The position numbers were made by a program, and so were the translations under genes. The notes beneath the pieces are model-generated. The model made no database searches and was not told where the DNA came from. It saw only the letters and a program-made list of their open reading frames with translations. 64,000 nucleotides of DNA, taken from Anaerolineae bacterium (GTDB taxonomy: Bacteria; Chloroflexota; Anaerolineae; CG2-30-64-16). Numbering within the stretch: the first letter of the stretch is position 1; every line of letters begins with the position of its first letter. This document shows positions 24,085 to 46,184 of the stretch, in pieces. The DNA lies in contig JAXGYZ010000002.1 in NCBI GenBank assembly GCA_040772005.1, positions 101,546 through 165,545 on the forward strand. The letters are read 5' to 3'.

Positions 24085-25137
24085 CTATGCAGGCGCGCCC
24101 GCCTTCGCCGGCAACGGCTCGGCCGCACCGACTGACCCGGCTGGGGGCGCCGGCTCGATGACCGGGCGGGGGTACAGCCCCAACTGCTTGACGATTTCGG
24201 GTACGGCGGCCGGCCAGTTGACGGCCATGATGTGCAGCCCGGCCACGCCTTCGATGCCGCGCACCTGCTCGGCAACTTCCAGGCAGATGTCCATGCCGGC
24301 CTTCTGCTGATCTTCTTTCGACAGGCCGGCCATGCGCGCCACGATGGCGTCCGGCACATCCATGCCCGCGACTTCCGTCTTCATGTACTCCGCTACGCGC
24401 ACCGACTTCATCGGCCCGACGCCTGCCAGGATAGCAACCTTTTCGTGTAACCCCAGGTCCACCACGCGGCGCATGAACTCGCGGAAGCGATCCACGTTGT
24501 AGATGAGCTGCGTCTGGATGAACTGAGCGCCCGCAACAACCTTCTTCGCCAGGCGCATGGGCCGGTAGTCGTAGGGCGGCGCAAACGGATTCTCGACTGC
24601 ACCGATGAAGATGTCGGGCGCAAACTTGGGAATCTGCTTGTTGTTTTCGAACACCCGATTGTTGCGCATCATGCGCGCGATGCGAATCAGGTTGATCGAG
24701 TCGATGTCGTAGACCGGCTTGCACTGCGGGTGATCGCCCCAGATGGGATGGTCGCCGCTCAGGAACAGCATCGTGTTGATGCCGAACACCGAGGCGCCGA
24801 GGATGTCGCCCTGGATGCCCAGCCGGTTGCGGTCGCGGCAGGTGAACTGCACGACCGGCTCCATGCCCGCCTGCTTGAGCATGATGCTCACGGCCAGGCT
24901 GGAGACGTGCACCATCGCGGACTGGTTATCGGTGACGTTGTACGCATCGCCGTAGCCGCGCAGGGTCTTGATCTCGCGCTGGATGGCTTCGAGGTTGGGG
25001 CCGACGGGCGGCGAGACCTCGACGCAGACGGCGAAGTGGCCGGCCTTCAGCACCTTCGCCAGGTTGCTGCTTGCGCCGGTCAATCCGGTCTGGATCACCT
25101 CGGCGGGCGCCGGAATGGGAGGGGTCGGTGCGTTCAT
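24085..25137 (-). CDS. metF: 5,10-methylenetetrahydrofolate reductase MetF
   Basis: Start ATG 25137 (MNAPTPP). MTHFR TIM-barrel motifs (FAVCVEVSPP ... RDRNRLGIQGDILGA ... FLSGDHP). The tool's 465-aa ORF is a 5' over-extension into the metV frame region. Confidence 0.75.
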   Translation of the reverse strand: MNAPTPPIPAPAEVIQTGLTGASSNLAKVLKAGHFAVCVEVSPPVGPNLEAIQREIKTLRGYGDAYNVTDNQSAMVHVSSLAVSIMLKQAGMEPVVQFTCRDRNRLGIQGDILGASVFGINTMLFLSGDHPIWGDHPQCKPVYDIDSINLIRIARMMRNNRVFENNKQIPKFAPDIFIGAVENPFAPPYDYRPMRLAKKVVAGAQFIQTQLIYNVDRFREFMRRVVDLGLHEKVAILAGVGPMKSVRVAEYMKTEVAGMDVPDAIVARMAGLSKEDQQKAGMDICLEVAEQVRGIEGVAGLHIMAVNWPAAVPEIVKQLGLYPRPVIEPAPPAGSVGAAEPLPAKAGAPA

Positions 25138-25661
25138 CGTGATGCCTCCTGCCCACCCTGGCCGTTGCGCTTCAGTGACTCGGTGGCGTAGCGCATCTTC
25201 GTATCGCTGCCGGTCGTGACCTGGTCGCGCCCCAGCGCAAACGTCACCCACGACGCCTGGCCCTTGAGCCGCCAGTCCACCGGCGGATTCAGGCGGTAGA
25301 TTTCCTGCGCGTAGGGCGTCTTCGCCGCGCGGCGGACTGCTGCCACCCAGACGCACTCCATCTCCGGCTTGACCTCGCAGTTGCCGTTCAGCCGCACACC
25401 GCCGCACGGGCCGTTGCGCAGGTTCTTCGGGCAGTTCATGGGACAGGTCATGCCCGAATAGTGCAGGACGCACTGGGCGCAATCCTGGCAGTTGAACAGC
25501 GCGCCCTTGATCAGCTCCTCCGGCAGCTTGACGATGCGCGAGGAGCGCTCCATGCCGACGCGCTCAAACAGCGGCCGCATCAGCAGAAGCACCTTTTCGG
25601 TCAGTTTCCAGGCCCATACCAGCGGCATGGGCCGGTCCTGGATATAGCTGCGTAATGACAT
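25134..25661 (-). CDS. metV: MTHFR C-terminal-domain zinc-ribbon protein (MetV-like small subunit)
   Basis: Cys-rich pattern (CQDCAQCVLHYSGMTCPMNCPKNLRNGPCGG) of the MetV partner found beside metF in acetogen-type Wood-Ljungdahl clusters; ATGA overlap with metF. Confidence 0.65.
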   Translation of the reverse strand: MSLRSYIQDRPMPLVWAWKLTEKVLLLMRPLFERVGMERSSRIVKLPEELIKGALFNCQDCAQCVLHYSGMTCPMNCPKNLRNGPCGGVRLNGNCEVKPEMECVWVAAVRRAAKTPYAQEIYRLNPPVDWRLKGQASWVTFALGRDQVTTGSDTKMRYATESLKRNGQGGQEASR

Positions 25662-25716
25662 CTATGTGGCTCCTCGGCTCTTGGGGCTAGAATCGCCCGG
25701 CGCAGTCGTCCGGCGA

Positions 25717-26604
25717 TTACGCGTCAATGTCATGTTGTAGTTTGAACCCGCGGACCGTGTTCTGCAAGAGCATGGCAATGGTCATCGGGCCTACGCCGCC
25801 GGGCACGGGTGTAATTGCGCCCGCCACCTCGAGGGCCTCACTGTAGCAGACATCGCCGACGAGCCGGAACCCGCTCTTCTTGGAAGGGTCCTCGATGCGG
25901 TTGATGCCCACATCGATGACCGCCGCGCCGGGCTTGATCCAGTCGCCGCGCACGAATTCGGGCCGGCCGATCGCGGCCACGACGATATCCGCGCGGCGCA
26001 CGATGTCCGGCAGGTTCTTGGTGCGGCTGTGGCAGATGGTCACGGTCGCGTCTGCGTTGTTCAGCAGCGCCGCAACCGGGATGCCGACGATGTTGCTGCG
26101 GCCCACGACGACCGCATCCGCGCCCGCAATGGTGATGCCGGAGCGGATAAGCAGCTCAATGCAACCGGCGGGGGTGCAAGGGATAAACTGCGGCACGCGG
26201 CCCTTCATCACCAACTGGCCGATGTTCATGGGATGGAACCCATCCACATCTTTGTTCAGGCTGATGAGGTCCAGCACGCTCTGTTCATTCAGTCCCTTCG
26301 GCAGCGGCAACTGGACGAGGATGCCGTTGATGACCGGGTCCGCGTTGAGCGCGCGCACCAGTTCCTCGACTTCCTGTTGGGTCGCCGTCGCCGGCAGGCG
26401 ATGGGTGACGGAACCCAAGCCTGCGGCCTCACACGCCTTGCCCTTGGAGCTGACGTAGGTCTGCGAGGCCGGGTTGTCGCCCACCAGCACCGCAGCCAGC
26501 GTCGGAACCGTGCCATATTGCTGCCTCAGCACGGCGACTTCATCCGCAGCTTCCTGGCGAACGGCCTCCGCGATCGCCTTCCCGTCGATAATCTTGGCTG
26601 TCAT
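25717..26604 (-). CDS. folD: bifunctional methylene-THF dehydrogenase / methenyl-THF cyclohydrolase FolD
   Basis: MTAKIIDGKAIA ... SQTYVSSKGKACEAAGL ... GRSNIVGIPVAALL; 295 aa, canonical FolD. Confidence 0.8.
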   Translation of the reverse strand: MTAKIIDGKAIAEAVRQEAADEVAVLRQQYGTVPTLAAVLVGDNPASQTYVSSKGKACEAAGLGSVTHRLPATATQQEVEELVRALNADPVINGILVQLPLPKGLNEQSVLDLISLNKDVDGFHPMNIGQLVMKGRVPQFIPCTPAGCIELLIRSGITIAGADAVVVGRSNIVGIPVAALLNNADATVTICHSRTKNLPDIVRRADIVVAAIGRPEFVRGDWIKPGAAVIDVGINRIEDPSKKSGFRLVGDVCYSEALEVAGAITPVPGGVGPMTIAMLLQNTVRGFKLQHDIDA

Positions 26605-26621
26605 GCAAGCTCCTTCTTCTG

Positions 26622-27593
26622 TTACACGCGCAGATACGAATCCGCGTAGATGACCTTGTTCAACAAAATCTGGACGGTCTTCCAGATGGCAACCTGCTCG
26701 GGGTCGGAGAAGTCCACCTGGTCCTGCGACAGTTCTTCCTGCGCGGCCACGGCATCGTGCAGGGCCAGCAGCAGGCGGCCGATGGCCGTGCTGTCATCCC
26801 GCTCCTCGACGATGCGGATGAACTCGTTCTGTTTGGCGTCCAGCGGGTCCGCGATCATCGTATCCAGGCCCGCACCCATCAACATGACGCAGTACACGCG
26901 GTTGATGAGCGGGCGCATCTCGTTGGGCACGGCGTTCGATACATTGCTGAGCCCGACCTGCACATCTGCGCCCGTCACCTTCAGGATGCGGACCGCCTCG
27001 ATGCACTCCGGCACGTATTGCTGGCAGCCGCTCACAGTCAACACCAGGGGGTCGATAATCAGGTTCTCCAGCGGCATGCCCACTTCTTCCCAGCGCGGGA
27101 TGAGCTCCTCCAACGCGATGTTGACCCGCTCCTCCGCGCTCACCGGGATCCCTTCGCTGCGCATGGTCAGGGCAATCAGCTTGGTGTTGTACTTGGCCGC
27201 GACCAGCGGCACATTCGCCAGGCGCTCCGGTTCCGCGGAGGTGGAGTTGATGATCGGCTGCTGCTTGACGACCTCGCACGCAGCCTCGATGGCGGCCAGG
27301 TTCGTGGTGTCCAGGCACAGCGGCACGTCCACCGCCTCTTGCACGGTCTGCACCAGCCAGGGCAGCAGCCGGACGCCGTTCTTCTTCTGGGGCCCGATGT
27401 TCAGGTCCACGGCCCAGGCGCCCGCTTCAACCTGGCGCCGCGCCGAATCTTGAAAGAACGTGCGGGCACGGGTCAGCAGCTCTTCGCGTTCCGAGTCTGT
27501 TAGGTCTTCTTTGTTCCAAGCATCGACTGCGTACCCCACCGCTTCCTTGACTCTGGGGGACAGGATATGGATATTCTCGCCGATGATACGCAT
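26622..27593 (-). CDS. acsE: methyltetrahydrofolate:corrinoid iron-sulfur protein methyltransferase AcsE (pterin-binding MeTr)
   Basis: ATG 27593 with GGAGGAAG ribosome-binding site (MRIIGENIHILSPRV). Pterin-binding TIM-barrel motifs (LCLDTTN ... INSTSAE). Confidence 0.75.
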   Translation of the reverse strand: MRIIGENIHILSPRVKEAVGYAVDAWNKEDLTDSEREELLTRARTFFQDSARRQVEAGAWAVDLNIGPQKKNGVRLLPWLVQTVQEAVDVPLCLDTTNLAAIEAACEVVKQQPIINSTSAEPERLANVPLVAAKYNTKLIALTMRSEGIPVSAEERVNIALEELIPRWEEVGMPLENLIIDPLVLTVSGCQQYVPECIEAVRILKVTGADVQVGLSNVSNAVPNEMRPLINRVYCVMLMGAGLDTMIADPLDAKQNEFIRIVEERDDSTAIGRLLLALHDAVAAQEELSQDQVDFSDPEQVAIWKTVQILLNKVIYADSYLRV

Positions 27594-27619
27594 GAAACTT
27601 CCTCCTCGGTGGATGTTGA

Positions 27620-28405
27620 CTAGGTGTACTGTAGTGCTTCCTTGGCTTCCTTGCGCACGACATACGCGCGGTCCCACGCAAAATGCTCATCTTCGCCCAA
27701 CAGATGGCGGCAAGTCTCAGCCAGGGCGCCGTACTCATCCTGGGTCAGGTGGCCGTATTTTGCGAGCTTGCCGAGGCTGCGGATAGCCTTCGCTCGAATT
27801 GCGGGGCTGGCATCCGCCAGGTTCGCCTGAAGCTGCTCGACGACGCTCTGGCGCAGCCCGGCGGGGAGCTGGCCGGCCGGGATGGACTCGACGAACTTGC
27901 CCAGCGCACGGGTCGCGCTGTCGCGCAGCTCGACCTCGGGCGAGGCTGCGGCTTCCAGGGCCACGGGCACCGCGTCGATGATCTTCGGGGATTTGACCTT
28001 GCCGAGCGCGTAGAGGATGAACGCGCGGCAGGCTGCCTCCGGGCACGTCTGGTGGTACTCCGCGACCAGCGGCGCAATGGCATCTGCTCCCATCCGCCCC
28101 AACACCTGTGCCACGGCCATCTGCGCTTTCACGTCGCCGGCTTCAAGGTTCTGAATCAAGGTCGGGATGGCCCACTTCCCGAAGCTGCCGATGAGCGCGA
28201 TGGCGTTCTCCAGCGCCGGAACGAGGTCGGGCCGGTCCAGTGGGTCGATATAGAACAGCGCGGAGACCATCTCGAGAAACCGGCTGCCTTCTTCCTCGGT
28301 CATGCGGTGCATGTGCGCCCGGATGGTCTCCAGTCCGCGCTCGACATCGTCGGCGTCGGCGCTGGCGAGCAGGTTGCCGATTGAGCGGTAGAGGTCCTCT
28401 TGCAT
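27620..28405 (-). CDS. HEAT-repeat (PBS-lyase-like) protein
   Basis: Repeated HEAT-like AxxALGxxG helices (VAQVLGRMGADAIAPL ... RAFILYALGKV ... AIRSLGKL). Start chosen at ATG 28405, which has an AAGGAGG ribosome-binding site. Confidence 0.5.
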   Translation of the reverse strand: MQEDLYRSIGNLLASADADDVERGLETIRAHMHRMTEEEGSRFLEMVSALFYIDPLDRPDLVPALENAIALIGSFGKWAIPTLIQNLEAGDVKAQMAVAQVLGRMGADAIAPLVAEYHQTCPEAACRAFILYALGKVKSPKIIDAVPVALEAAASPEVELRDSATRALGKFVESIPAGQLPAGLRQSVVEQLQANLADASPAIRAKAIRSLGKLAKYGHLTQDEYGALAETCRHLLGEDEHFAWDRAYVVRKEAKEALQYT

Positions 28406-28535
28406 GGCGTCCTCCTTGAGGATCAGGTTCATCTCACGCAAAGGCGCAAAGTGCGCCAAGAAACATTTGGATCCGACATGGCTTTGCGGACTTTGCGTCT
28501 CGGCGTGAGCCTCTCCACAGGCATTCAGTTGCAGG

Positions 28536-29567
28536 TCAGTAGCTCACGCGCAGGACTTTGGCGCCCCGAATCCGGCGTGCCTTGAGTTCCACCAGGGCCT
28601 GGTTGGCTGTCTCCAGCTCGTACTCCTGCACTTCCGGCAATATCGGCGTCTCGGCGGCCAGCGCCAGGAACTCGCTTACGTCCTGGCGTGTCACATTGGC
28701 AACGCTCTTGATTTCCCGCTCCAGCCACAGATGGGCCGGATAGTCGAGCCGCAGCAGCGCGTCACGGTCACGGTCTTCCTTGCGAATCGCGTTGATGACC
28801 AGCCGGCCGCCTGGCGCCAGGTTGCGCAGCGCTGCGACGACCGGTGTCCAGGCGGGCGTCGTGTCGATGATGGCGTCCAGCGGGACCGGGCTGGTGGCGT
28901 CAGTGTGGCCTGCCCAGGCCGCCCCCAGCTCCCGCGCGAAGGCCTGCTCTGTCTCCGTGCGCGAGAAAACGTACACCGGCATGTGCGGGTAGCGGTGGCG
29001 CACCATCTTCAACACCAGGTGCGCGGAGGCGCCGAACCCCGTCAGCCCGAGTGCCTGTCCATCGTGCAGCCCGGTCAGCCGCATGGAGCGGTAGCCGATG
29101 GCCCCGGCACAGAGCAGCGGTGCAGCCTGTGCATCGGTGAACACCTCCGGGATGCGGTAGGCAAACGCCTCCGGCACAACCATATACTCCGCATACCCGC
29201 CGTGTGCATCGCGGCCCGTCGCACGGAACTGCGGACACAGGTTCTCCTGCCCGCTGAGACACCAGGGGCACGCGCCGCACGCCGAGTAAATCCACGCGAC
29301 GCCGACCCGCTCGCCCAGGTTGAATGCGCTTGCGTCTGCACCGCGTGCCGCCACGCGGCCGACGACTTGATGGCCCAACACGATGGGCAACTGTGGCGGC
29401 GGCGTGCGGCCCTCGATTTCATCCAGCTCCGTATGACACACGCCGCAGGCGGTCACGCGGAGCAGAATCTCCCCTTCGCCCGGTTCCGGCACGGGCAGGT
29501 CCACGCGCTGCAACGGCTCCGGGTTGTCCGCGAGCTGCGTGATGGCGGGAAGGATCATCGCGCGCAT
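28536..29567 (-). CDS. zinc-dependent alcohol dehydrogenase family oxidoreductase
   Basis: Catalytic-Zn motif GVCHTELDEIEG, structural-Zn cysteines (CGACPWC ... C) and a Rossmann GxGxxG (GLTGFGASAHL). Confidence 0.7.
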   Translation of the reverse strand: MRAMILPAITQLADNPEPLQRVDLPVPEPGEGEILLRVTACGVCHTELDEIEGRTPPPQLPIVLGHQVVGRVAARGADASAFNLGERVGVAWIYSACGACPWCLSGQENLCPQFRATGRDAHGGYAEYMVVPEAFAYRIPEVFTDAQAAPLLCAGAIGYRSMRLTGLHDGQALGLTGFGASAHLVLKMVRHRYPHMPVYVFSRTETEQAFARELGAAWAGHTDATSPVPLDAIIDTTPAWTPVVAALRNLAPGGRLVINAIRKEDRDRDALLRLDYPAHLWLEREIKSVANVTRQDVSEFLALAAETPILPEVQEYELETANQALVELKARRIRGAKVLRVSY

Positions 29568-29587: not shown

Positions 29588-30334
29588 CTATCCCACCAAC
29601 TGCCGCGCGACCTCTGCGACGGCCCGGCTGATAAGCGCATCGTCCGGCAGTTCGACCAGCGCGCGGCCCTGGCTGTCATATTCTGCGATGAGCGGGTCAT
29701 AGGGCAGCGCGGCGAGCAGCGGCACGCCCATGCCCTCCGCCTTTGCCCGCAGCGCCGGCGTCAGCTCTCCCTGCACCCGGTTGATAATCAGATGGGTGTT
29801 GCGGACCCGCACCTCCAGGTCCTTGCTCAGCCCGACCATCGCCTCTGCCGCGACCATGCCGCGCATGCTGGCGTCGCTGACGAGAATCAGGTGGTCGACA
29901 TCGCGCGTCGTGCGGCGGCTCAGGTGCTCCATGCCCGCCTCGTTGTCCATCACCACCCAGTCATAGCCGCGGTTGATGCCATCCATGATATTGCGCAGCA
30001 TGTGGTTCGCCGCGCAATAGCAGCCCTGGCCTTCGGGGCGGCCCATGGCCAGCAGGTCGAAGTCGTCGCCTTCCTCGACAGCCATGCGCACCGCGTAGCT
30101 CAGGAAGTCCTGGCGCGTCTGGCCGGGCGTCACCCCCGTGCGCGCCTCCTCGCGGATGTCGCCGATGGTCTGCGTCAGGTGCATGCCGAGCACGAGATGC
30201 AGGTTGCTCGACGGGTCAGCGTCAATTGCCAGAATCTTGCCGCCCTTGTGGGCCACCAGATAGCGGACCAGCAGGCCGCAGAACGTGGTCTTGCCCGTTC
30301 CGCCCTTGCCGGCGACCGCGATGGTCATCGTCAT
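29588..30334 (-). CDS. cooC: CO dehydrogenase nickel-insertion ATPase CooC (AcsF-type)
   Basis: Deviant Walker A (AVAGKGGTGKTT) and the CxC metal site (GCYCAAN) of CooC/MinD-family maturation ATPases. Confidence 0.75.
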   Translation of the reverse strand: MTMTIAVAGKGGTGKTTFCGLLVRYLVAHKGGKILAIDADPSSNLHLVLGMHLTQTIGDIREEARTGVTPGQTRQDFLSYAVRMAVEEGDDFDLLAMGRPEGQGCYCAANHMLRNIMDGINRGYDWVVMDNEAGMEHLSRRTTRDVDHLILVSDASMRGMVAAEAMVGLSKDLEVRVRNTHLIINRVQGELTPALRAKAEGMGVPLLAALPYDPLIAEYDSQGRALVELPDDALISRAVAEVARQLVG

Positions 30335-33022: not shown

Positions 33023-33025
33023 GAC

Positions 33026-39720: not shown

Positions 39721-40212
39721 TTAAGCGGTTCGATTAGGCGGCAGGTTGTAACGCTGCCGGAATAAATCCATCGGTGACGGCCGCGCCGCGTGCATTCCCT
39801 GGTCGCGGATATATTCCGGCCCGGCCAGCGCCTTGACCACGTCGCGCAGATTCAGGACTGAGGCAGGCCACATCTTGCCGCCCGCGTGGTGCATGAAGAA
39901 AAGGTGGTCGACGCCGAGATCGGCCATCAACTGCACGGTCGCAGCCAGCGGAATGTCTGCCGGCGCTTCCGGGATGTCCTCGTCCATGACATCCGCGGCG
40001 ACCAGCTCGCCGGCCCGGTCGCCCGTAGTATAAACCAGCGCCAGCATCCGCTCGTTGAGCCACCCGCGCGCGTCGCCGTCCTCATCCATCACGACGGTCG
40101 CGGTCCAGCCCTGCTCGACCATCTGCCGGGCAAGTTGAATGACTTTGTCATCCGACTTGCACGTGGGCACGCCGATGCGCATCACGTCGCGGACGAGAAG
40201 CGGTTCAGTCAT
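39721..40212 (-). CDS. CBS-domain pair protein
   Basis: Start ATG 40212 (MTEPLLVRDVMRIGVPT). Two CBS repeats (VRDVM ... and LVAADVM ...). Confidence 0.6.
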   Translation of the reverse strand: MTEPLLVRDVMRIGVPTCKSDDKVIQLARQMVEQGWTATVVMDEDGDARGWLNERMLALVYTTGDRAGELVAADVMDEDIPEAPADIPLAATVQLMADLGVDHLFFMHHAGGKMWPASVLNLRDVVKALAGPEYIRDQGMHAARPSPMDLFRQRYNLPPNRTA

Positions 40213-40576
40213 CGCCTTCGCTCTCGGCGTTGTACTCGGCCTGCTCCTCTGCCACGGCCAGCGCATCCGCCTCCACAGCAGACGGTGCGGCCGGGTGGAT
40301 CGCGAGGCGCAGGCCCAGGCTCCGCAGCAGCGCGGTCAGGCTGGAGAGCTGAGGGTTGCCGTTGGGCGACAACATGCGATACAGGTTCTCACGATTGAGC
40401 TGGGCCTCGCGTGCCAGTTGGCTCACACCCCGGGCTTCGGCCACGTCGCGCAATGCTAACAGGAAGACCTCCTGGTCTCCGTCCTCCAGTGCTGCATTGA
40501 GATAACCGAGAGCATACTCTGGATCGGCAAGCCGCTTCAGCAACCCGCTCTTGTATTCAACCGCCGGCTCTCTCAT
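40205..40576 (-). CDS. addiction-module antidote protein (HigA-like HTH, TIGR02684 type)
   Basis: REPAVEYKSGLLKRLADPEYALGYLNAALEDGD ... LALRDVAEARGVSQLAREAQLNRENLYRML is the characteristic antidote HTH. The start ATG overlaps the upstream killer-gene stop (TGATG). Confidence 0.6.
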   Translation of the reverse strand: MREPAVEYKSGLLKRLADPEYALGYLNAALEDGDQEVFLLALRDVAEARGVSQLAREAQLNRENLYRMLSPNGNPQLSSLTALLRSLGLRLAIHPAAPSAVEADALAVAEEQAEYNAESEGDD

Positions 40577-40577
40577 C

Positions 40578-41035
40578 ACAGTCCTCCGCAGAAGTCCGCC
40601 CAGTAAAGCTGCGCCAGCTCGATATCATCCCTTTGTGAGTCTTTGTCGCCGCCACAGAGCAGTACAACAACTCGATCACCATGTCGGGCGAAGTAGATGC
40701 GGTAGCCGGGGGGCGCGTTTCATACTGGGGGCGAATTCGTAGCGCACTTACGCTGCGGCGTGGGCACGGACAATATCCCGCCCTCGCATCACCGAGATTC
40801 GTGGCCGCAGACGCATTCGTTTATCCGCGCTGCCAACGTGACATCGATGCGATAGGCGGGCCTCTAGTCGATCCTCAGTTCACTGACTCCTCCTAATAAT
40901 CGCAGTCACTGAACGTGCAAGTCTGGCGCGAATCCGCACAGCAGCTTCCATATCCCGTAGTTTGGCAACCCATTGCCTGAACGGGTTCCTACCTTCTTCA
41001 GTTGAATAATCAACAATGATGATGGTTTCTGCCAC
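40578..41035 (-). pseudogene. disrupted addiction-module killer (RelE/HigB-like) gene: frameshifted and with an internal insertion
   Basis: N-terminal fragment (GTG 41035: ...IVDYSTEEGRNPFRQWVAKLRDMEAAVRIRARLARS) in one frame; GVSELRID in a second frame ending in TAG; about 150 nt of unrelated GC-rich sequence; then the C-terminal fragment (PPGYRIYFARHGDRVVVLLCGGDKDSQRDDIELAQLYWADF) in a third frame ending at the coupled TGATG. The N-terminal part is AT-rich, unlike the host. Confidence 0.45.
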
Positions 41036-41079
41036 GAGTGTAGTATAAAAGCTACAGATTGTAAAGTCGCGACGATCAA

Positions 41080-41139
41080 CCGCGGAAGACACGGAGCACA
41101 CAGAATGATAATTTTCCGCGTGCTCCGTGTCTTCCGCGG
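41080..41139. terminator. 20-bp perfect palindrome with an AT-rich loop 3' of acsB (terminator candidate; related to 53980-54049)
   Basis: ccgcggaagacacggagcac, a 20-nt loop (acagaatgataattttccgc), then gtgctccgtgtcttccgcgg. The right arm and loop resemble the palindrome at 53980-54049 (ttccgcgtg.tccg.gt; gatgat.ttt). Confidence 0.5.
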
Positions 41140-41148
41140 TTCACATCG

Positions 41149-43437
41149 TTAGAACATCGGCTCCATCATCAGCGACGGGTGGCCGGTCGCTTCGAGGTGC
41201 GCGAGCAGGCCGTCCACGTCGGTGCAGATGGTCTCATCGGCAATCTTGCTCAACAGGTCGGGGTCGCCCTCGCGCTCGCACACGGCCTGGAGTTCCGCGG
41301 CCATCGTCTGCTTGAGCACGCTGGACATCCACACGACGCGGCTGAAGCCGCCGTCTGCGGAGATGAACTTCGGGCTGGTCAGGTAGTACTTGCCGACGCC
41401 CATTACGCCTGGCGTCTGCAACCCGCCGCCGGCCATGCCGGCCAGGGTCGAAAACGTCATGCCCGCGGGCGTCATGCTCGTGTCCTCGCGGGAGACGACC
41501 ATCACGCCGTTCGCCTCCGGGATGAGCATGACGATGCACTCGAAGCAGCCGCACGCAGTCATGGGTGCGTTCATGATCGAGTACATCGCGACTTCCTGCA
41601 CCGTGCCGTTCGACTTCTGCTGTGCGATTTCGTTCAGGCCCGCGTAGATACCCTTCTCGCGGTCGATCATCATGCCCTTACGGATGGGCTGATTCGGGCC
41701 GGTCGGGTTAATCTGGTAGGAGGCCGCGCAGTCCAGGTAGTTGTATGCGCCGCACAGGCCGAGACGCTGCGGGCTGACCAGGCACAGGTGGGTCGGCGCA
41801 AACGACTGGCAGAGCGTGCAGGTGTAGAACTCCTCCACTGACTCGTCGGTCATATCCGCGAGGCGGTTGTTGCGATAATCGTAGGCATCACGGGCCTTTT
41901 GCAGCCATGTGGCGTGCAGCGTCGGGTCCGTGATGATTTTGACCTGCACCTTGTCCACGATAGCGCCGAAGTCGGCCATCAGGCGGGCATGCACGATGTC
42001 ACCGAAGTGCTTGAGCGAGAACCCCTTGTCCGCCGCGGCCTTGCTGATGCGAATCCAGGTGATATCGCGCTGGCCGATGTGCTGGATGCCGCTCGCGCCG
42101 TTGACGAAGTAGTGAATCTGGCGTTCGAGCACCGGCTCGAAGTCCCGCTGCATCTTGCGGCCCGCAACCTCGACCAGGATGCCCATGTCCATCGAGCCTG
42201 CTTCCGGCACGTCTGCGAAGTCCGGCCCGATGACCTCAATCTTGCCGTCCTCCACCTGGTCCATGTCGACCATGCGCAGATATTCGAAGGCCCGGCTGTA
42301 CTTGCCGCCGAATTCGACGCGCATGTCCTTCTTGCGGACGACCTCACCCTCGAACGCGGAGCCGTAGGGCACCGGGATCGGGACCTCGGTCAGCTTGATC
42401 TTGACGCCGCGCGTCTCGATGCACTTCTGGACCAGCTTCTCTGCGCGTTCCAGGTCATCCTTGCCTTCGATTTCGTTGAAGGGCATGGAGATGACGTGCT
42501 CATAGGTCGTCACGCCGGTGGGCAGGATCTGGGGGATGCGCGTGTCTGCGATGACCGGAAAGCCGTAGTTGATGGCGCCCGCGGCTGCCGCGTACTTCAG
42601 GTCGTCGACCTCGCCCAGCGCCAGCACAAACGCAAAGACGCGCTGCCGGTTGTATTGCAGGATGTCCTTCGCCTGCCCGCCCTTCATGCCGCCGAAGGTC
42701 AGCGCGGAACGGGTCGCGAACCCGATGGGATAGATGGCGGAGAGTGTGTCCAGGCCAAACGGCACGATGTAGGTGTCGTAGCCCATCTCCACGCCCTCTT
42801 CCTGCAACTGGTGGATGACCGAGCGGCCGTTGACGTTGCCGCAGAGGAAGATCAGGATGTTGCGTTTCTGCAGCTCACGCACGATCTTGACCGCGACCTC
42901 GTTGCTCTTGGCGCAGCCGACAATCGCGGCGAAGCCGGGCATACGCCCGTCGACCAACTGGATGCCCCAGGCGCGGAGCTGAACGTCGTCGATCGGACCG
43001 TTCAACCGTCCGTTGCCGTCAGAGCCGCCGGAGGTCCCGCCATCCGGGCTGGTGAAGCTGCCGCCGGTCCCGTGGAAGCCTTCCAGGCGACCCGGTTCCT
43101 CGCCATAGACGAAGCGGATGGCCTCGATGATCTCCGCGGCCAGCAGCGTGGACATGCCGGAGTCCAGCGTCTCGCCGAGGTAGGGTGTCCAGCACTGGAC
43201 CGTCGGGACGGGATGCAGCAACTCCTTTGCATGCTCCAGCACCGGCGTCAGCTCGCCCAGCTTGGTGATCTCGCGACCGGTCATGCCGAAGATGGTCGGC
43301 AGGTAGTAAGCAGTATTGGGGAAGGCGACAGGGCAGTCAGCGCCCTTCTCCTGCAAGGCTTTGCTGAGGAGCTCGTCGGCCTCTTGCACAATCAGGTTGG
43401 CGCCGCGGATGGCGCGAGTAGCGATGTATCGCGACAT
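41149..43437 (-). CDS. acsB: acetyl-CoA synthase catalytic subunit AcsB (CODH/ACS beta; A-cluster)
   Basis: 762 aa with near-diagnostic ACS segments: AFPNTAYYLPTI, IEVIGPDF, FYTCTLCQSFAPTHLCLVSPQRLGLCGA, MTACGCFECIVMLIPEANGVMVV (A-cluster Cys-Gly-Cys), MTFSTLAGMAGGGLQTPG. Confidence 0.85.
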   Translation of the reverse strand: MSRYIATRAIRGANLIVQEADELLSKALQEKGADCPVAFPNTAYYLPTIFGMTGREITKLGELTPVLEHAKELLHPVPTVQCWTPYLGETLDSGMSTLLAAEIIEAIRFVYGEEPGRLEGFHGTGGSFTSPDGGTSGGSDGNGRLNGPIDDVQLRAWGIQLVDGRMPGFAAIVGCAKSNEVAVKIVRELQKRNILIFLCGNVNGRSVIHQLQEEGVEMGYDTYIVPFGLDTLSAIYPIGFATRSALTFGGMKGGQAKDILQYNRQRVFAFVLALGEVDDLKYAAAAGAINYGFPVIADTRIPQILPTGVTTYEHVISMPFNEIEGKDDLERAEKLVQKCIETRGVKIKLTEVPIPVPYGSAFEGEVVRKKDMRVEFGGKYSRAFEYLRMVDMDQVEDGKIEVIGPDFADVPEAGSMDMGILVEVAGRKMQRDFEPVLERQIHYFVNGASGIQHIGQRDITWIRISKAAADKGFSLKHFGDIVHARLMADFGAIVDKVQVKIITDPTLHATWLQKARDAYDYRNNRLADMTDESVEEFYTCTLCQSFAPTHLCLVSPQRLGLCGAYNYLDCAASYQINPTGPNQPIRKGMMIDREKGIYAGLNEIAQQKSNGTVQEVAMYSIMNAPMTACGCFECIVMLIPEANGVMVVSREDTSMTPAGMTFSTLAGMAGGGLQTPGVMGVGKYYLTSPKFISADGGFSRVVWMSSVLKQTMAAELQAVCEREGDPDLLSKIADETICTDVDGLLAHLEATGHPSLMMEPMF

Positions 43438-43463
43438 GGTTAGTTCCTCCGTGAACCGGAATG

Positions 43464-43550
43464 AGAGACGAGTAACGAGTAACGAGTAAGGAGAAATGAG
43501 TAAGCGTCACTTCTTACTCGTTACTCATTACTCGTTACTGATTTCTCATC
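43464..43550. repeat. long palindrome of tandem GAGTAAC heptamers between acsB and cooS
   Basis: gagagacgagtaacgagtaacgagtaaggagaaatgagtaag, loop cgtcac, then ttcttactcgttactcattactcgttactgatttctcatc. The right arm reaches the cooS stop codon. Confidence 0.6.
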
Positions 43551-45540
43551 ACCCGTAAATCTCTGCCATCTGCTCTTCGACCGGCAGTTCGCTGTATGAC
43601 TCCATCGCCGCATCCCCGGATGCGCCAAAGCGGGCCGGATCGTAGGCAGGCAGCTTCAGCGCCGCGCGCTTCTTGTCGATGTGCTCGAGTGTCTTCTGGA
43701 CGATGTCTCCGGCCTCGATAACGAACTCCAGCTTGCCGCCGTAGCGGTCTTCCCACTCACTTAACAGGATGTCGGAAACCGCATCGGAGAACTCAACCGG
43801 GTTGCGCACGCCCATGATGACGTACGCGCCAGAGCCGACACAGTAAGTGGCGATGGATAAAGCTTTCTCGCTCATCCATTCGGGTGCCAGGCCGACCGCC
43901 GGGATATCGCTGATGTCGTCGCCCAGGCCGCCCTCGGTCGCCATCTGGCTCAACACAGTGAGGATGCGGCTGTTATCCACGCAGGAACCGAGGTGCAGGA
44001 CCGGCGGGATGCCGATCGCTTCGCAGACCTCGCGCAGGCCGGGGCCGACCTTTTCCGGATCGAGGCCCGCAGAGCCCTTCATATAGCCATACTTGCCGGC
44101 TGCAATCGCGCCGCACCCCGTGCTCACCACCAGAACATCATTCTTCAGCAGTTCGGTGACCACATCCATGTGGACCTGGTCGTGGGTGAAGGCGGGGTTG
44201 TTGCAACCGACATTCGCCGCCACGCCGCGGATGCGCCCGCTGGCGATGGCGTCGTTGAGCGGCCGGAAGGAGGCCCGATAGTTGCCGCCCTGCATGTAGG
44301 CCAGATACTCATGGCTGAAGCCCGGCACCATTTGTTCGGACATGCCATGGGGGATGTGCGTCTCGGCGGCCCGGTTGGCATAGTTGTCGATTGCGCGGCG
44401 CACGATATTCTTGGCGATGTCCATCGCGTGATGCTCGTCGAACTCGATGTGTGTGGCGCCGGTAATCTTGACTTTGGGGCTGGTGGTGATGATTTCGGTG
44501 TGGAAGTGCTCGGCAACGCCCACCAGGGATTGCATGATGCACTGCACATCCACCACCATTGCCTCGACCGCGCCGGTCAGGATGGCGAGTTCCTGCGTCA
44601 GGAAGTTGCCGGCGGAAGGAATGCCCTGGCGCATCATGACCTCATTGGCCGTGCAGCAGATGCCCGCCAGGTTGATGCCGTCCGCGCCCTTGCTCTTGGC
44701 ATACTCGATCAGATCGGGGTCCTGAACGGCCGTGACGATCATCTCAGAGAGCGTGGGTTCGTGGCCGTGGACGATGATGTTGACCTGCTTCTCTTCCAGG
44801 CAGCCGAGATTGACTCCGCCAACCTTCGGGCTGGGGGTGCCGAAGAGGATGTCGGAGATGTCGGTGGCCCACATCGAGCCGCCCCAGCCGTCGGATAGGG
44901 CCGTGCGCACAGCGGCGCTCAAGATGTGGCTGGCATCCTGGTCGTCGCCAATGTGCGTGCGATGCAAGATCTCCACCACTTCGCGGTCGATGCCCCGCGG
45001 CACCACACCCTGGTCGCGCCAGAGCTTCTGGCGCTTGGGCGGTGCGGTATTGATGTAACTGAGCGTCCCGCGCTGTTGCCCGAATTCGCTGATGGCTTTG
45101 TTGGCCACGTCCAGCGCGACCTCTATGACAGTCTTGCCTTTCGTGGGGATGCCATGTTTGGCCGCGACGGCATACAGCTTGGCCTCATCGCGAATCTGGT
45201 AACCCTGGGCCTCGCCGGTCGCCACTGCATGGAGGGTAAACGCCAGGTCACGGCCATGGTCGGAGTGAGCCGCCGCGCCAGCCGCAATCGCCCGCGCCAG
45301 ATTGCGGGCCGCGATGGTTTCCAGCGTCGCACCGCAGATGCCGACTTGCCCTTCTTTGGTGATGCGGCAGGGCCCCATATAGCAATTTTTGCAGCAGACG
45401 CCCGATTGCCCGCTGCCCACGGTGCAGGGCTTATGGTCTGCCGCCCGGCTAAATGAGGTCGAGATGCCCATCAGTTCGGCAACGTCCAGCACGTAGCATG
45501 CGGCTGGATCGATGCTGGGCGTGATTTTCTGTTTTGCCAT
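43549..45540 (-). CDS. cooS: anaerobic carbon-monoxide dehydrogenase catalytic subunit CooS/AcsA (Ni-Fe C-cluster)
   Basis: Start ATG 45540 with GAGGAG ribosome-binding site (MAKQKITPSIDPA). D/B-cluster N-terminal cysteines (CTVGSGQSGVCCKNCYMGPCRI), C-cluster ligands (HGHEP; GICCTANE; GCNNP; HLGSCVDN); 663 aa. Confidence 0.8.
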   Translation of the reverse strand: MAKQKITPSIDPAACYVLDVAELMGISTSFSRAADHKPCTVGSGQSGVCCKNCYMGPCRITKEGQVGICGATLETIAARNLARAIAAGAAAHSDHGRDLAFTLHAVATGEAQGYQIRDEAKLYAVAAKHGIPTKGKTVIEVALDVANKAISEFGQQRGTLSYINTAPPKRQKLWRDQGVVPRGIDREVVEILHRTHIGDDQDASHILSAAVRTALSDGWGGSMWATDISDILFGTPSPKVGGVNLGCLEEKQVNIIVHGHEPTLSEMIVTAVQDPDLIEYAKSKGADGINLAGICCTANEVMMRQGIPSAGNFLTQELAILTGAVEAMVVDVQCIMQSLVGVAEHFHTEIITTSPKVKITGATHIEFDEHHAMDIAKNIVRRAIDNYANRAAETHIPHGMSEQMVPGFSHEYLAYMQGGNYRASFRPLNDAIASGRIRGVAANVGCNNPAFTHDQVHMDVVTELLKNDVLVVSTGCGAIAAGKYGYMKGSAGLDPEKVGPGLREVCEAIGIPPVLHLGSCVDNSRILTVLSQMATEGGLGDDISDIPAVGLAPEWMSEKALSIATYCVGSGAYVIMGVRNPVEFSDAVSDILLSEWEDRYGGKLEFVIEAGDIVQKTLEHIDKKRAALKLPAYDPARFGASGDAAMESYSELPVEEQMAEIYG

Positions 45541-45554
45541 GAGATGTATCTCCT

Positions 45555-45881
45555 CTACTTCTTGGCATCCCGCAGGTCGGTGCGGGTCTGGCGTAGGCCG
45601 AGGCGATCCCATGCGGGATCTTTGCGGCCATCCTGTACGGGAACGGGTTGCGTCATGACGCTCGCGCCGTCGGTGGCAACGGGGTAGCCGGCCTCATCCA
45701 GCATGGCCATAATGGCGCCCGGCGTGACCAGCGCCGGGTCGTAAGATACGATGACCATGCGGAAGGCGGAGCTGGCAAGAACATCCTGCACACCGGTCAA
45801 CTGCGACAGGGCTTCCCGCACCTTCAGCGTGTGATGATCGGCCCAGAGATTGGGCACGCCGAACTGGATTTTCTCCATGGG
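45555..45881 (-). CDS. conserved hypothetical small protein co-operonic with cooS
   Basis: 108-aa ORF with a GAAGGAGG ribosome-binding site 10 nt upstream of ATG 45881; it ends 14 nt before the cooS start. No recognisable motif. Confidence 0.4.
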   Translation of the reverse strand, partial: PMEKIQFGVPNLWADHHTLKVREALSQLTGVQDVLASSAFRMVIVSYDPALVTPGAIMAMLDEAGYPVATDGASVMTQPVPVQDGRKDPAWDRLGLRQTRTDLRDAKK

Positions 45882-45899
45882 TGGCTGACCTCCTTCAAG

Positions 45900-46184
45900 G
45901 GGGCTGTTCAAAGGCTTTTTCGGCTCCAGGCGGGGACCTGCTGTGGCGTTGGCTTTTTCAGCGTAGAGCAGGTCCGCGATTTCGCGCCGGTGTTCGATAT
46001 AGATTTCGCAGAAGTCGCAGGTGACAGAGAGGGGTGCGCAGCAACAGGAACTCCCCGCGCATTCTTCCCAGCAGGTTTGTGTTCCCGCATAGATGGCGCA
46101 ATCGGCGCACGCCACCACCCAGCCGTTCTTGCCGGATGCGTGCCTGGCCTGAAGTTCACGCCGGATTTCCCAACATCTGCGCAT
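45900..46184 (-). CDS. cysteine-rich small protein (11 Cys; possible metal or Fe-S binding) leading the cooS operon
   Basis: ACADCAIYAGTQTCWEECAGSSCCCAPLSVTCDFCEIY; weak ribosome-binding site. First gene after the leader and terminator downstream of the ANTAR regulator. Confidence 0.4.

What the first reader, a model, noticed from the sequence alone, without database searches (positions are those of the whole stretch)
24085..46184. Wood-Ljungdahl gene cluster interrupted by toxin-antitoxin modules
A roughly 21-kb block on the minus strand encodes, in order: cooS/acsA, acsB, acsD, acsC, nfnAB, RACo, cooC, acsE, folD, metV and metF. It also carries an FNR-like reductase, a Zn-ADH, a GNAT and a HEAT-repeat protein. 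The gene set is embedded with three addiction-type modules. A complete vapBC pair lies between acsC and nfnA. A HigA-like antidote with a decayed RelE-like killer, plus a CBS protein, splits acsB from acsD. A BrnTA pair lies beside the separate AOR gene.

Having cooS directly coupled to acsB together with metF/metV is the acetogen-type arrangement rather than the reduced Dehalococcoidia-type arrangement. Formate dehydrogenase and fhs are absent from the window. TA cassettes inside a core catabolic operon are unusual and could stabilise the locus or indicate horizontal assembly.
Basis: partly seen in the sequence, partly recalled or inferred. Interest (0 to 1): 0.6.

Follow-up and report, generated by a model that had tools for sequence, protein, structure and literature searches.

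The report
Acetyl-CoA pathway genes carrying toxin-antitoxin inserts
A bacterium of the class Anaerolineae carries a real, intact gene cluster for the carbon monoxide/acetyl-CoA (Wood-Ljungdahl) pathway, and small toxin-antitoxin gene pairs have settled in the gaps between its genes, a curiosity that recurs in its relatives.

Summary
Window 24085-46184 (minus strand) encodes cooS, acsB, acsD, acsC, nfnAB, RACo, cooC, acsE, folD and metVF. It also encodes CBS, FNR-like, GNAT, Zn-ADH and HEAT proteins.

An intact vapBC pair lies between acsC and nfnA. A HigA-type antitoxin with a decayed toxin gene lies between acsB and the CBS gene. A BrnTA pair lies next to AOR.

The source is an Anaerolineae bacterium. 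About 20 related loci keep the same gene order, but the toxin-antitoxin (TA) modules are patchy. Other relatives carry different TA families at the same or other junctions. The modules are therefore later, repeated insertions into hairpin-bounded spacers. They are not part of the pathway and they do not indicate horizontal assembly of the cluster. I could not test whether the cluster attracts more TA modules than the rest of the genome.

- A conserved 110-nt leader with two hairpins competing with a terminator lies upstream of the first gene. It is often next to an ANTAR two-component system and is absent from Rfam.
- A conserved Cys-rich/HMA-like gene lies before cooS.

Overall: a known pathway and known TA families in a modestly unusual arrangement.

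The parts
47069..48250 (-). Sensor histidine kinase with GAF, HisKA_2 and HATPase domains, upstream of the cluster
   Evidence: Pfam. It is syntenic with the cluster in L002, L003, L005, L017 and L019 and in 8 metagenome contigs.
46481..47059 (-). Response regulator with an ANTAR RNA-binding output domain
   Evidence: Response_reg E 5.5e-26 and ANTAR E 1.8e-23. It is adjacent to the leader in 6 of 13 genome sequences and in 13 of 32 metagenome contigs.
46277..46385 (-). Conserved non-coding leader. It has a P1 hairpin, then a second small hairpin whose 3' arm is shared with an intrinsic terminator that ends in a U tract
   Evidence: Alignments A2-A4 and covariance model R1. There is one copy per locus in 13 genome sequences (E 1e-8 to 1e-31), always upstream of the first gene. 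96% of cells pair and 7 pairs show compensatory change, with 0 of 500 shuffles reaching this. There is no Rfam match.
45555..46184 (-). First gene of the block: a Cys-rich N-terminal half plus an HMA-like C-terminal half with WADHH in place of CxxC
   Evidence: Weak HMA match and PDB copper-ATPase metal-binding domains at E 5e-10. The Cys residues and WADHH are conserved in 35 orthologues. Both halves have dN/dS of 0.13-0.37 where it could be estimated. It always lies between the leader and cooS.
43549..45540 (-). cooS/acsA, anaerobic CO dehydrogenase catalytic subunit
   Evidence: Prismane E 6e-160. TIGR01702 587 bits against a cut-off of 478.
43451..43552 (.). Long hairpin between cooS and acsB, whose arms are heptamer tandem repeats
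   Evidence: A hairpin is predicted at this position in most relatives, but its sequence is not conserved.
41149..43437 (-). acsB, acetyl-CoA synthase
   Evidence: NF040764 957 bits against a cut-off of 800. The CGCFEC and Fe-S cysteine motifs are visible in the translation.
41078..41141 (.). 28-bp-arm hairpin directly after the acsB stop codon
   Evidence: It is identical in L002; other relatives have different hairpins at the same place.
40576..41035 (-). higB-like (Gp49/HI1419-type) toxin pseudogene, with a conserved promoter/operator region TTTACA-17-TACACT and TGTAG-N8-CTACA
   Evidence: Three-frame translation. The reconstructed protein matches PF05973 at 28.6 bits. Alignment A1 shows intact orthologues in L002, L017 and L004, and in the window a frameshift, a TAG stop and an inserted segment. 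Promoter-like site.
40205..40576 (-). higA-like antitoxin (dnstrm_HI1420 family), now without a working toxin
   Evidence: PF21716 E 4.5e-19. TIGR02684 69 bits against a cut-off of 53.7. dN/dS 0.10-0.18. Its stop codon overlaps the CBS start (ATGACTGA).
39721..40212 (-). CBS-domain protein, conserved in the clade
   Evidence: Pfam CBS. It is present between acsB and the FNR-like gene in relatives without any TA module.
38847..39662 (-). FNR-like ferredoxin-NADP reductase-type flavoprotein, preceded by a promoter-like site TTAACA-17-TATAAT
   Evidence: NAD_binding_1, PRK10926 partial match, promoter-like site.
37836..38807 (-). acsD, corrinoid iron-sulfur protein small subunit
   Evidence: CdhD. 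NF003376 354 bits against a cut-off of 280.
36453..37823 (-). acsC, corrinoid iron-sulfur protein large subunit
   Evidence: CdhD and FeS domains. NF003195 548 bits against a cut-off of 306.
36327..36421 (-). Hairpin after acsC (36371-36421), followed by a promoter-like TTGCAA-17-TAGAAT and a GGAGG ribosome-binding site for vapB
36022..36300 (-). vapB, ribbon-helix-helix antitoxin
   Evidence: RHH_1 and Antitox_RHH. It overlaps vapC by 22 nt. dN/dS 0.18-0.23.
35633..36043 (-). vapC, PIN-domain toxin
   Evidence: PIN E 3.8e-14. The best PDB match is M. tuberculosis VapC20 at E 9e-12, with D8, E49, D105 and D124 kept. dN/dS 0.22-0.26.
34604..35500 (-). nfnA-like FAD/NAD-binding subunit
   Evidence: NF004862 410 bits against a cut-off of 220.
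33124..34677 (-). nfnB-like (GltD-type) subunit; the start codon is uncertain
   Evidence: Fer4_20 and Pyr_redox_2. TIGR01316 590 bits against a cut-off of 472.
30995..33070 (-). RACo/AcsV, reductive activase of the corrinoid protein
   Evidence: Fer2, RACo linker, middle and C-terminal domains. NF040756 587 bits, below its cut-off of 800.
30334..31104 (-). GNAT acetyltransferase; the start codon is uncertain
   Evidence: Acetyltransf_1. Conserved in part of the clade.
29588..30334 (-). cooC/acsF-type nickel-insertion ATPase
   Evidence: CbiA. The best PDB match is CooC1 3kje at E 1e-17. P-loop and CYC motif are present.
28536..29567 (-). Zinc-type alcohol dehydrogenase
   Evidence: ADH_N. TIGR02822 290 bits against a cut-off of 283.5.
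27620..28459 (-). HEAT-repeat protein
   Evidence: HEAT_2 and HEAT. Conserved at 57-61% identity in the clade.
26622..27677 (-). acsE, methyltetrahydrofolate:corrinoid methyltransferase; the start codon is uncertain
   Evidence: Pterin_bind. NF005719 and NF040758 match but below their cut-offs.
25717..26604 (-). folD
   Evidence: THF_DHG_CYH domains. NF010785 401 bits against a cut-off of 396.
25134..25661 (-). metV
   Evidence: DUF5981/MTHFR C-terminal domain, E 7e-26.
24085..25137 (-). metF; the start is refined to the ATG that overlaps the metV stop codon
   Evidence: MTHFR E 4e-37 and translation.
3836..4404 (+). BrnT (3836-4117) and BrnA (4114-4404), lying between AOR (1560-3740) and a ThiS-like gene (4401-4601)
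   Evidence: BrnT_toxin E 6e-28, BrnA_antitoxin E 1e-11 and ThiS E 2e-7. AFOR domains.

Best explanation
This is a chromosomal, intact bacterial CODH/ACS (Wood-Ljungdahl) gene cluster of an Anaerolineae bacterium.

Its order is: leader, Cys-rich/HMA-like gene, cooS, acsB, CBS, FNR-like, acsD, acsC, nfnAB, RACo, GNAT, cooC, Zn-ADH, HEAT, acsE, folD, metV, metF. This order is inherited vertically within a clade.

The cluster is probably not one seamless operon. Strong hairpins follow several stop codons and divide it into segments.

Type II TA modules are later, lineage-specific insertions into these spacers. They sit just downstream of the hairpins, point the same way as the cluster and bring their own promoter-like sites, so they do not disrupt the pathway genes.
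- vapBC is intact and under purifying selection. It most likely still works as an ordinary, autonomous addiction or defence module, with a VapC20-like RNase as toxin.
- The higBA module has lost its toxin in this genome only. Its antitoxin, operator and promoter persist, and the antitoxin is translationally coupled to the CBS gene.

Shown: gene identities, synteny, patchy TA distribution, toxin decay and selection.

Inferred: the selfish origin of the modules, their harmlessness to expression, and the segmental transcription.
For: Identities.

Source and vertical descent: the 55 best AcsC matches are Chloroflexota. The gene order is conserved in about 20 loci at 73% AcsC identity or more.

TA distribution is patchy:
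- vapBC occurs only in the window, L001, L002 and L017, at 74-79% amino-acid identity while the flanking genes are 95-99% identical.
- A divergent vapBC occurs in L012, and BrnT occurs at the same junction in L010.
- higBA occurs in the window, L002, L017 and L004.
- L016 has a 5-kb TA array at acsB|CBS.
- L054 has HigBA at cooC|ADH.
- L005 has DUF4258/DUF2283 before the leader.

Spacers without an insert are about 25-250 nt, against about 940-950 nt here.

Selection: TA genes have dN/dS of 0.10-0.26, against 0.03-0.13 for the pathway and accessory genes in the closest pairs (L001, L002). Their dS is about twice as high. GC and GC3 are lower in the TA segments.

Hairpins follow cooS, acsB and acsC in the window and in nearly all relatives examined, with unrelated sequences. 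Promoter-like sites precede vapB, the higB remnant and the FNR-like gene.

The same arrangement appears in independent assemblies (L001, L002, L017), which rules out misassembly.
Against: - There is no transcript data, so the operon segmentation, read-through and promoter activity are all inferred.
- There are no target-site duplications or other insertion scars around the cassettes, and no closely related empty site to align. The insertion mechanism is therefore unknown.
- I could not compare TA density in the cluster with the genome-wide density. In the window it is 2 modules in 22 kb against 1 in 42 kb, which is not significant. So neither 'hotspot' nor 'no preference' is established.
- Purifying selection on the orphaned higA and its coupling to the CBS gene hint at some retained function that a purely selfish model does not require.
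Confidence: 0.75

Rival explanations
1. The TA modules have been co-opted by the cluster. In this reading the orphaned HigA acts as a local transcription factor on its conserved operator and drives or represses CBS and the downstream genes. The vapBC promoter feeds nfnAB, or the modules act as addiction elements that protect the 22-kb locus from deletion.
For: - higA is kept under purifying selection (dN/dS 0.10-0.18) although higB is dead.
- The operator-like palindrome TGTAG-N8-CTACA and the promoter-like site are invariant in all four carriers.
- The higA stop codon overlaps the CBS start.
- All the modules point the same way as the cluster.
- TA modules recur at the same junctions in relatives.
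Against: - About ten relatives run the same cluster with no TA module at these junctions, so the modules are dispensable.
- The families differ from genome to genome, which fits opportunistic insertion better than a conserved function.
- The dN/dS values are averaged over lineages in which the toxin is still intact.
Confidence: 0.17
2. The TA modules mark seams where the cluster was assembled by horizontal transfer of sub-blocks.
For: The TA segments have lower GC and GC3 than their neighbours. They sit at block boundaries: acsAB | acsDC | nfnAB-RACo.
Against: - The same block order exists without TA modules in many relatives.
- Identities of all blocks to L001, L002 and L017 are congruent at 90-99%.
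- The nearest AcsC relatives are all Chloroflexota.
- The flanking genes are housekeeping genes such as PNPase, S15 and RodZ.
Confidence: 0.06
3. The TA genes are mis-called ORFs or assembly chimeras.
For: The genome has 65% GC and produces many spurious ORFs.
Against: - The family matches are significant and exceed the curated cut-offs.
- The pairs have the canonical overlapping TA architecture.
- The genes are under purifying selection.
- The same modules are found in independent assemblies.
Confidence: 0.02

Closest known systems
Bacterial acs (CODH/ACS) gene clusters of acetogens such as Moorella thermoacetica (gene order recalled from memory)
   Same: The enzyme set is the same: cooS/acsA, acsB, acsC, acsD, acsE, RACo, and cooC/acsF. 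The methyl-branch genes folD and metVF are nearby.
   Different: - The order here is cooS-acsB-...-acsD-acsC-...-acsE.
- Extra conserved genes are present: CBS, FNR-like, NfnAB, GNAT, Zn-ADH, HEAT and a Cys-rich/HMA-like first gene.
- fhs and fdh are not in the window.
- TA modules sit in the spacers.
- The host is an Anaerolineae bacterium of unknown physiology.
Reduced Wood-Ljungdahl clusters of Dehalococcoidia (loci L050-L052 here; the literature on Dehalococcoides is recalled from memory)
   Same: The acsB-acsD-acsC-cooC-acsE core is shared, and both belong to the phylum Chloroflexota.
   Different: Those loci show no cooS in the 0.3-1.6 kb held upstream of acsB, and no nfnAB or RACo block in the stretch seen. 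Here cooS is directly upstream of acsB, and metVF and folD are linked.
VapBC type II toxin-antitoxin systems, closest solved member M. tuberculosis VapC20 (PDB 5wzf)
   Same: A PIN toxin with all four acidic residues and an overlapping upstream RHH antitoxin gene.
   Different: The PDB alignment is distant (48.6 bits, E 9e-12). The RNA target is unknown. The module sits between two metabolic genes of one cluster.
HI1419/HI1420-type (Gp49-like HigB / HigA-like) addiction modules
   Same: The order is toxin first, antitoxin second. The antitoxin passes TIGR02684 and the toxin remnant matches PF05973.
   Different: The toxin is a pseudogene in this genome. The antitoxin is translationally coupled to a CBS-domain gene.
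ANTAR antitermination leaders (EutV/eut, NasR, AmiR; PMC3369931, PMC8934654), and PdtaS/PdtaR-type GAF kinase plus REC-ANTAR pairs (recalled from memory)
   Same: Two small tandem hairpins with similar loops, the second sharing sequence with a terminator stem. A REC-ANTAR regulator and its kinase are encoded directly upstream in many genomes. G at loop position 4 is invariant.
   Different: The loops read G-A-Y-G rather than A-x-x-G, and the second loop has 7 nt. The regulator gene is not adjacent in roughly half of the loci. The regulated genes are CODH/ACS genes, which none of the ANTAR papers consulted here lists among known targets.

Membership tests
Bacterial CODH/ACS (Wood-Ljungdahl carbonyl branch) cluster | A Ni-CODH catalytic subunit CooS/AcsA that is not a hybrid-cluster protein | tested here: met
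   TIGR01702 587 bits against a cut-off of 478; TIGR01703 (HCP) only 26 bits.
Bacterial CODH/ACS (Wood-Ljungdahl carbonyl branch) cluster | Acetyl-CoA synthase AcsB with the A-cluster cysteine motifs | tested here: met
   NF040764 957 bits against a cut-off of 800. CGCFEC and CTLCQSF...C...C are seen in the translation.
Bacterial CODH/ACS (Wood-Ljungdahl carbonyl branch) cluster | Corrinoid iron-sulfur protein AcsC and AcsD, methyltransferase AcsE, activase RACo and maturation ATPase CooC | tested here: met
   AcsC and AcsD pass the NCBIfam cut-offs. RACo has all four Pfam domains. The best PDB match of CooC is CooC1 and it has the CXC motif. AcsE matches Pterin_bind and NF040758 but below the NCBIfam cut-off.
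Complete Wood-Ljungdahl pathway (methyl branch) | fdh, fhs, folD and metF are all present | tested here: inconclusive
   folD and metVF are present. No ORF in the 64-kb window matches FTHFS or a molybdopterin FDH. The rest of the genome was not available.
NfnAB (NADH-dependent ferredoxin:NADP oxidoreductase) | A paired small FAD/NAD subunit and a GltD-like subunit | tested here: met
   NF004862 410 bits against a cut-off of 220; TIGR01316 590 bits against 472. Enzyme activity cannot be tested here.
VapBC type II TA | A PIN toxin with four conserved acidic residues, preceded by an overlapping antitoxin gene | tested here: met
   PIN E 3.8e-14 and RHH_1 E 1.2e-7. D8, E49, D105 and D124 align with VapC20. 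The two genes overlap by 22 nt.
VapBC type II TA | Toxin-mediated growth arrest that the antitoxin neutralises | not testable with these tools
   This needs expression assays.
HigBA-like (HI1419/HI1420) TA | An intact toxin gene upstream of the antitoxin | tested here: not met
   The toxin is broken by a frameshift, a TAG stop and inserted sequence. It is intact in L002, L017 and L004. The antitoxin itself passes TIGR02684.
BrnTA type II TA | BrnT and BrnA domains in adjacent, overlapping genes | tested here: met
   PF04365 97 bits and PF14384 45 bits, both above their cut-offs.
ANTAR dual-hexaloop antiterminator RNA | Two tandem small hairpins, the second mutually exclusive with an intrinsic terminator | tested here: met
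   In A3, P1 and P2 are 100% paired. In A4, P1 plus the terminator are 96% paired, with 7 compensatory pairs. The P2 3' arm GCCUG is also the terminator 5' arm, and a U tract follows.
ANTAR dual-hexaloop antiterminator RNA | Hexanucleotide loops with A at position 1 and G at position 4 (PMC3369931) | tested here: not met
   The P1 loop is G-A-Y-G-N-N and forms a hexaloop only if a U-G pair closes it. The P2 loop is G-R-Y-G-A-A-M, 7 nt. G4 is kept but A1 is not.
ANTAR dual-hexaloop antiterminator RNA | Binding by, and dependence on, an ANTAR protein | not testable with these tools
   Only gene adjacency is available: 6 of 13 genome sequences and 13 of 32 metagenome contigs.
Integron cassette or transposon insertion (as origin of the TA modules) | Flanking attC-like sites or target-site duplications | tested here: not met
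   No direct repeats flank any of the three modules. The adjacent hairpins are also present in loci without an insert.

The most novel reading that the evidence does not exclude
The CODH/ACS locus of this Anaerolineae clade would be a regulated, modular unit with three undescribed features:
1. A conserved leader attenuator of ANTAR-like design with non-canonical G-A-Y-G loops. It would put acetyl-CoA pathway genes under a GAF-kinase/REC-ANTAR two-component system.
2. A dedicated Cys-rich/HMA-like (WADHH) protein before cooS, acting as a metal chaperone for CODH/ACS.
3. Hairpin-bounded spacers that act as recurrent landing sites for diverse TA cassettes. At least one of these (the orphaned HigA with its operator) would have been domesticated as a local regulator.
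Probability: 0.3. Interest if true: 0.6.

Novelty: new variant of a known kind. Interest (0 to 1): 0.4.

Why it matters
The pathway and the TA families are textbook, so the finding as written is mostly a correct annotation. Its value lies in three things the comparison exposed.

1. It gives a clean natural series showing how TA modules colonise a core metabolic locus without breaking it. The same cluster occurs with no TA module, with different TA modules at the same junction, with a TA array, and with a toxin caught decaying while its antitoxin stays.
2. The conserved leader is a concrete, testable candidate for post-initiation control of CODH/ACS genes in Chloroflexota. Regulation of this pathway outside model acetogens and methanogens is poorly known.
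3. The conserved Cys-rich/HMA-like gene before cooS is a candidate maturation factor. Public gene calls mostly truncate it to 107-109 aa, and where a source names it, it is called 'CopZ'.

Tried and rejected
- Exact look-ups of AcsC and of the 107-aa HMA-like protein found no source contig.
- Rfam gave nothing at the gathering thresholds for the whole window. At E up to 5 over 23000-48500 it gave only spurious miRNA-like hits on the intergenic hairpins.
- I considered that the leader is a canonical ANTAR site. The loops do not fit the A1/G4 rule.
- I considered that the leader terminator merely ends the upstream ANTAR operon. This is rejected because the element keeps its place and orientation before the first cluster gene in loci where the upstream genes are unrelated or divergent.
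- I looked for extra copies of the leader inside the cluster, as in eut operons. There are none.
- I looked for insertion scars or direct repeats around the TA modules. There are none.
- I considered integron-like attC hairpins. The hairpins are also present where no cassette is inserted.
- TA enrichment in the cluster against the rest of the window is 2 modules in 22 kb against 1 in 42 kb. The numbers are too small, and no whole genome was available.
- Literature searches for TA modules inside Wood-Ljungdahl clusters or metabolic operons returned nothing specific.
- Some dN/dS rows are artefacts of mis-registered coordinates and were ignored: GNAT; RACo and cooS against L002; nfnA against L001 and L017.

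Full report
**Checking the observation**

The window has about 65% GC, so ORF lists are noisy. I chose genes by length and third-position GC and tested them against Pfam and NCBIfam.

- cooS 43549-45540: TIGR01702 587 bits against a cut-off of 478.
- acsB 41149-43437: NF040764 957 bits against 800, with the CGCFEC motif.
- acsD 37836-38807 and acsC 36453-37823.
- nfnA and nfnB 33124-35500.
- RACo 30995-33070.
- cooC 29588-30334: the best solved relative is CooC1 (3kje), and it has a P-loop and a CYC motif.
- acsE 26622-27677, folD 25717-26604 and metV 25134-25661.
- metF: I place its start at 25137, where the ATG overlaps the metV stop codon.

The accessory genes (FNR-like, CBS, GNAT, Zn-ADH, HEAT) are also confirmed.

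No predicted ORF anywhere in the window matches formyl-THF synthetase or a molybdopterin formate dehydrogenase. The flanks hold housekeeping genes such as PNPase, S15, RodZ and signal peptidase. The cluster is therefore chromosomal and not on an obvious island.

**The toxin-antitoxin (TA) modules are real**

- vapB (36022-36300, RHH) overlaps vapC (35633-36043, PIN, E 4e-14) by 22 nt. The closest solved relative of VapC is M. tuberculosis VapC20, and the four acidic PIN residues are kept.
- Between acsB and the CBS gene lies a HigA-type antitoxin, 40205-40576 (TIGR02684 69 bits against 53.7).
- The 460 nt upstream of higA are the wreck of a Gp49/HI1419-type toxin. The N-terminal part is in one frame and the rest in another. 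There is an in-frame TAG and about 95 extra bases, including a degenerate duplicate of the GVSELRID-GPGYRI segment. The stitched protein matches PF05973. The orthologous genes in L002, L017 and L004 are intact (alignment A1).
- The higA stop codon overlaps the start of the CBS gene.
- BrnT and BrnA (3836-4404) lie between the AOR gene and a ThiS-like gene.

**Source organism and synteny**

A scan of species-representative genomes with AcsC returned 80 loci. The best 55 are Chloroflexota, mostly Anaerolineae, at up to 96% identity.

A tblastn synteny table shows the order cooS-acsB-CBS-FNR-acsD-acsC-nfnA-nfnB-RACo-(GNAT)-cooC-(ADH)-HEAT-acsE-folD. This order is conserved in about 20 loci with AcsC identity of 73% or more. 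More distant Anaerolineae have a leaner cluster.

Three Dehalococcoidia loci show acsB-acsD-acsC-cooC(-acsE), with no cooS hit in the 0.3-1.6 kb held upstream of acsB.

**The TA modules are not part of the conserved order**

- vapBC occurs at acsC|nfnA only in the window, L001, L002 and L017. There it is 74-79% identical while the neighbouring genes are 95-99% identical.
- L012 has a vapBC of only 53-58% identity at the same junction. L006 has a vapB-like fragment there, and L010 has a BrnT there.
- higBA occurs at acsB|CBS in the window, L002, L017 and L004.
- L016 has a 5-kb array at that junction holding BrnTA, a PIN toxin, ParE/Phd, an HTH protein and TumE. It also has an MNT-type nucleotidyltransferase between the CBS and FNR-like genes.
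- L054 has HigB/HigA between cooC and the ADH gene.
- L005 has DUF4258/DUF2283 just upstream of the cluster.
- About ten loci have no TA module at all, with spacers of about 25-250 nt where the window has about 940-950 nt.

Pairwise dN/dS is 0.10-0.26 for the TA genes. It is 0.03-0.13 for the pathway and accessory genes in the closest pairs (L001, L002). The TA genes have roughly double the dS and lower GC3. The modules are therefore functional or recently functional genes with a separate history.

I found no flanking direct repeats, so the insertion mechanism is open.

**Where the modules sit**

Inverted-repeat searches and folding of the 110 nt after the stop codons show a strong hairpin directly after cooS, acsB and acsC. 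This holds in the window and in nearly all relatives examined. The sequences are unrelated between genomes, and the arms are often made of short tandem repeats.

Both cluster-internal TA modules start just downstream of such a hairpin. Both carry a promoter-like site:
- TTGCAA-17-TAGAAT before vapB.
- TTTACA-17-TACACT, with a conserved TGTAG-N8-CTACA palindrome, before the higB remnant.

A third strong promoter-like site (TTAACA-17-TATAAT) precedes the FNR-like gene.

My reading, which is an inference, is that the block is a chain of segments separated by hairpins. Co-oriented cassettes can land in these spacers at little cost.

The other spacers are not alignable between genomes. The spacer upstream of the first gene, by contrast, is strongly conserved (alignments A2, A3). 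Its parts, in order:
- A 7-bp hairpin P1 with the loop G-A-Y-G-N-N.
- A 9-12 nt linker.
- The sequence CAGGU-GAYGAAM-GCCUG (P2).
- A terminator whose 5' arm reuses GCCUG, followed by a U tract.

A covariance model built from seven sequences found exactly one copy in each of 13 genome sequences (the window and 12 related loci). It is always in front of the first gene and never elsewhere in the cluster. On the 13-sequence alignment, 96% of cells pair and seven pairs show compensatory changes, with 0 of 500 shuffles reaching this. That alignment was fitted to the model, which favours the structure.

An exact-pattern scan of metagenome contigs found 32 more copies. In all 30 contigs with coding sequence downstream, the copy lies directly upstream of the same first gene, which is followed by cooS wherever the contig extends far enough.

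A REC-ANTAR response regulator and a GAF/HisKA_2 kinase are encoded immediately upstream in the window. They are also upstream in five of the twelve related genome loci and in 13 of the metagenome contigs. In the other loci, unrelated genes lie upstream.

The design is that of ANTAR antiterminators: two small hairpins, the second competing with the terminator (PMC3369931, PMC8934654). The loops keep G at position 4 but lack the canonical A at position 1, and P2 has a 7-nt loop. I therefore call it ANTAR-like and do not file it as a member.

Rfam has no match. A palindrome ATGAC-N4-GTCAT lies about 41 nt upstream of the likely transcription start, and a second copy follows the terminator. These could be protein operators; I did not test this.

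**The first gene**

ORF 45555-46184 has two halves:
- A Cys-rich N-terminal half with conserved CW, CxxC, CCC and TCDFC.
- An HMA-like C-terminal half in which the CxxC metal site is replaced by an invariant WADHH.

Both halves are under purifying selection. Public gene calls mostly start at the internal Met and give a 107-109 aa protein. Where a source names it, it is called 'copper chaperone CopZ'. Distant Anaerolineae keep only the HMA-like half before cooS. A role as a metal chaperone for CODH/ACS is a reasonable guess but is untested.

**Verdict**

It is wrong or unsupported on horizontal assembly. It overstates how unusual the TA modules are for this lineage, where they are frequent, diverse and dispensable.

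The most likely mechanism is opportunistic insertion of autonomous type II modules into hairpin-bounded spacers of a vertically inherited cluster. One module is now decaying. A minority reading is that the orphaned HigA or the TA promoters have been co-opted.

Whether the locus is a true hotspot needs whole-genome counts that I could not make.

Noticed in passing
window 23034-23765 (-): A peroxiredoxin gene has an in-frame TGA at 23505-23507, exactly at the peroxidatic cysteine ([13 protein letters not shown]). A small hairpin (CCGACugaguuGUCGG) follows immediately. It is a candidate selenocysteine peroxiredoxin, lying just downstream of metF.
   Followed up: partly
window 19316-20383 (-): A SelD-like selenophosphate synthetase (AIRS domains) has an in-frame TGA in SLSSCAG-U-ASKL. 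From memory, this is the position of the catalytic Cys/Sec. It supports selenocysteine use by this organism.
   Followed up: partly
window 43451-43552, 33029-33121, 28433-28509, 23957-24010, 60491-60544, 61912-61965, 53980-54049, 5475-5546: Intergenic hairpins whose arms are short tandem repeats, with units such as ACGAGTA, GATTGAA and GACAGGATT. Some form dispersed families: the GACAGGATT type occurs three times in the window, and the 5475-5546 type recurs after acsC in L001. Relatives have a hairpin at the same gene ends but with unrelated sequence, so turnover is fast. They lack U tracts. I did not look further into their origin or role.
   Followed up: partly
L016 3-2945 (PHCA01000067, Chloroflexi bacterium HGW-Chloroflexi-1): The AcsB of this relative carries an intein (Intein_splicing 36.3 bits, Hint 24 bits). 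It is inserted just before the CGCFEC A-cluster motif.
   Followed up: partly
L096 4366-6280, L109 8380-10174, L110 1206-3208, L083 3929-4914, L107 882-2222, L082 13-494: In metagenome contigs the gap between the ANTAR gene and the leader is another landing site. It holds DUF4258/DUF2283 pairs, BrnTA, an HNH-like gene with a partner, and what look like DUF433/DUF5615 pairs. The last two were recognised by eye only. L081 holds what looks like a decayed fusion of two of these.
   Followed up: partly
window 46415-46430 and 46268-46283 (-): Two copies of the palindrome ATGAC-N4-GTCAT. One is centred about 41 nt upstream of the likely transcription start of the cluster; the other follows the leader terminator. 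The first is conserved in L002, L003, L017 and L019, which suggests a DNA-binding regulator in addition to the RNA element.
   Followed up: no
window 45555-46184 (-): Public gene calls for this ORF mostly begin at the internal Met103 and miss a conserved Cys-rich N-terminal half that is under purifying selection.
   Followed up: yes
L026 5444-5806, L029 425-751, L037 3544-3870, L045 14551-14835: More distant Anaerolineae have small nucleotidyltransferase-like (MNT-type) ORFs between cooS and acsB, or between RACo and cooC. They were detected only by weak phmmer matches of 28-38 bits.
   Followed up: no
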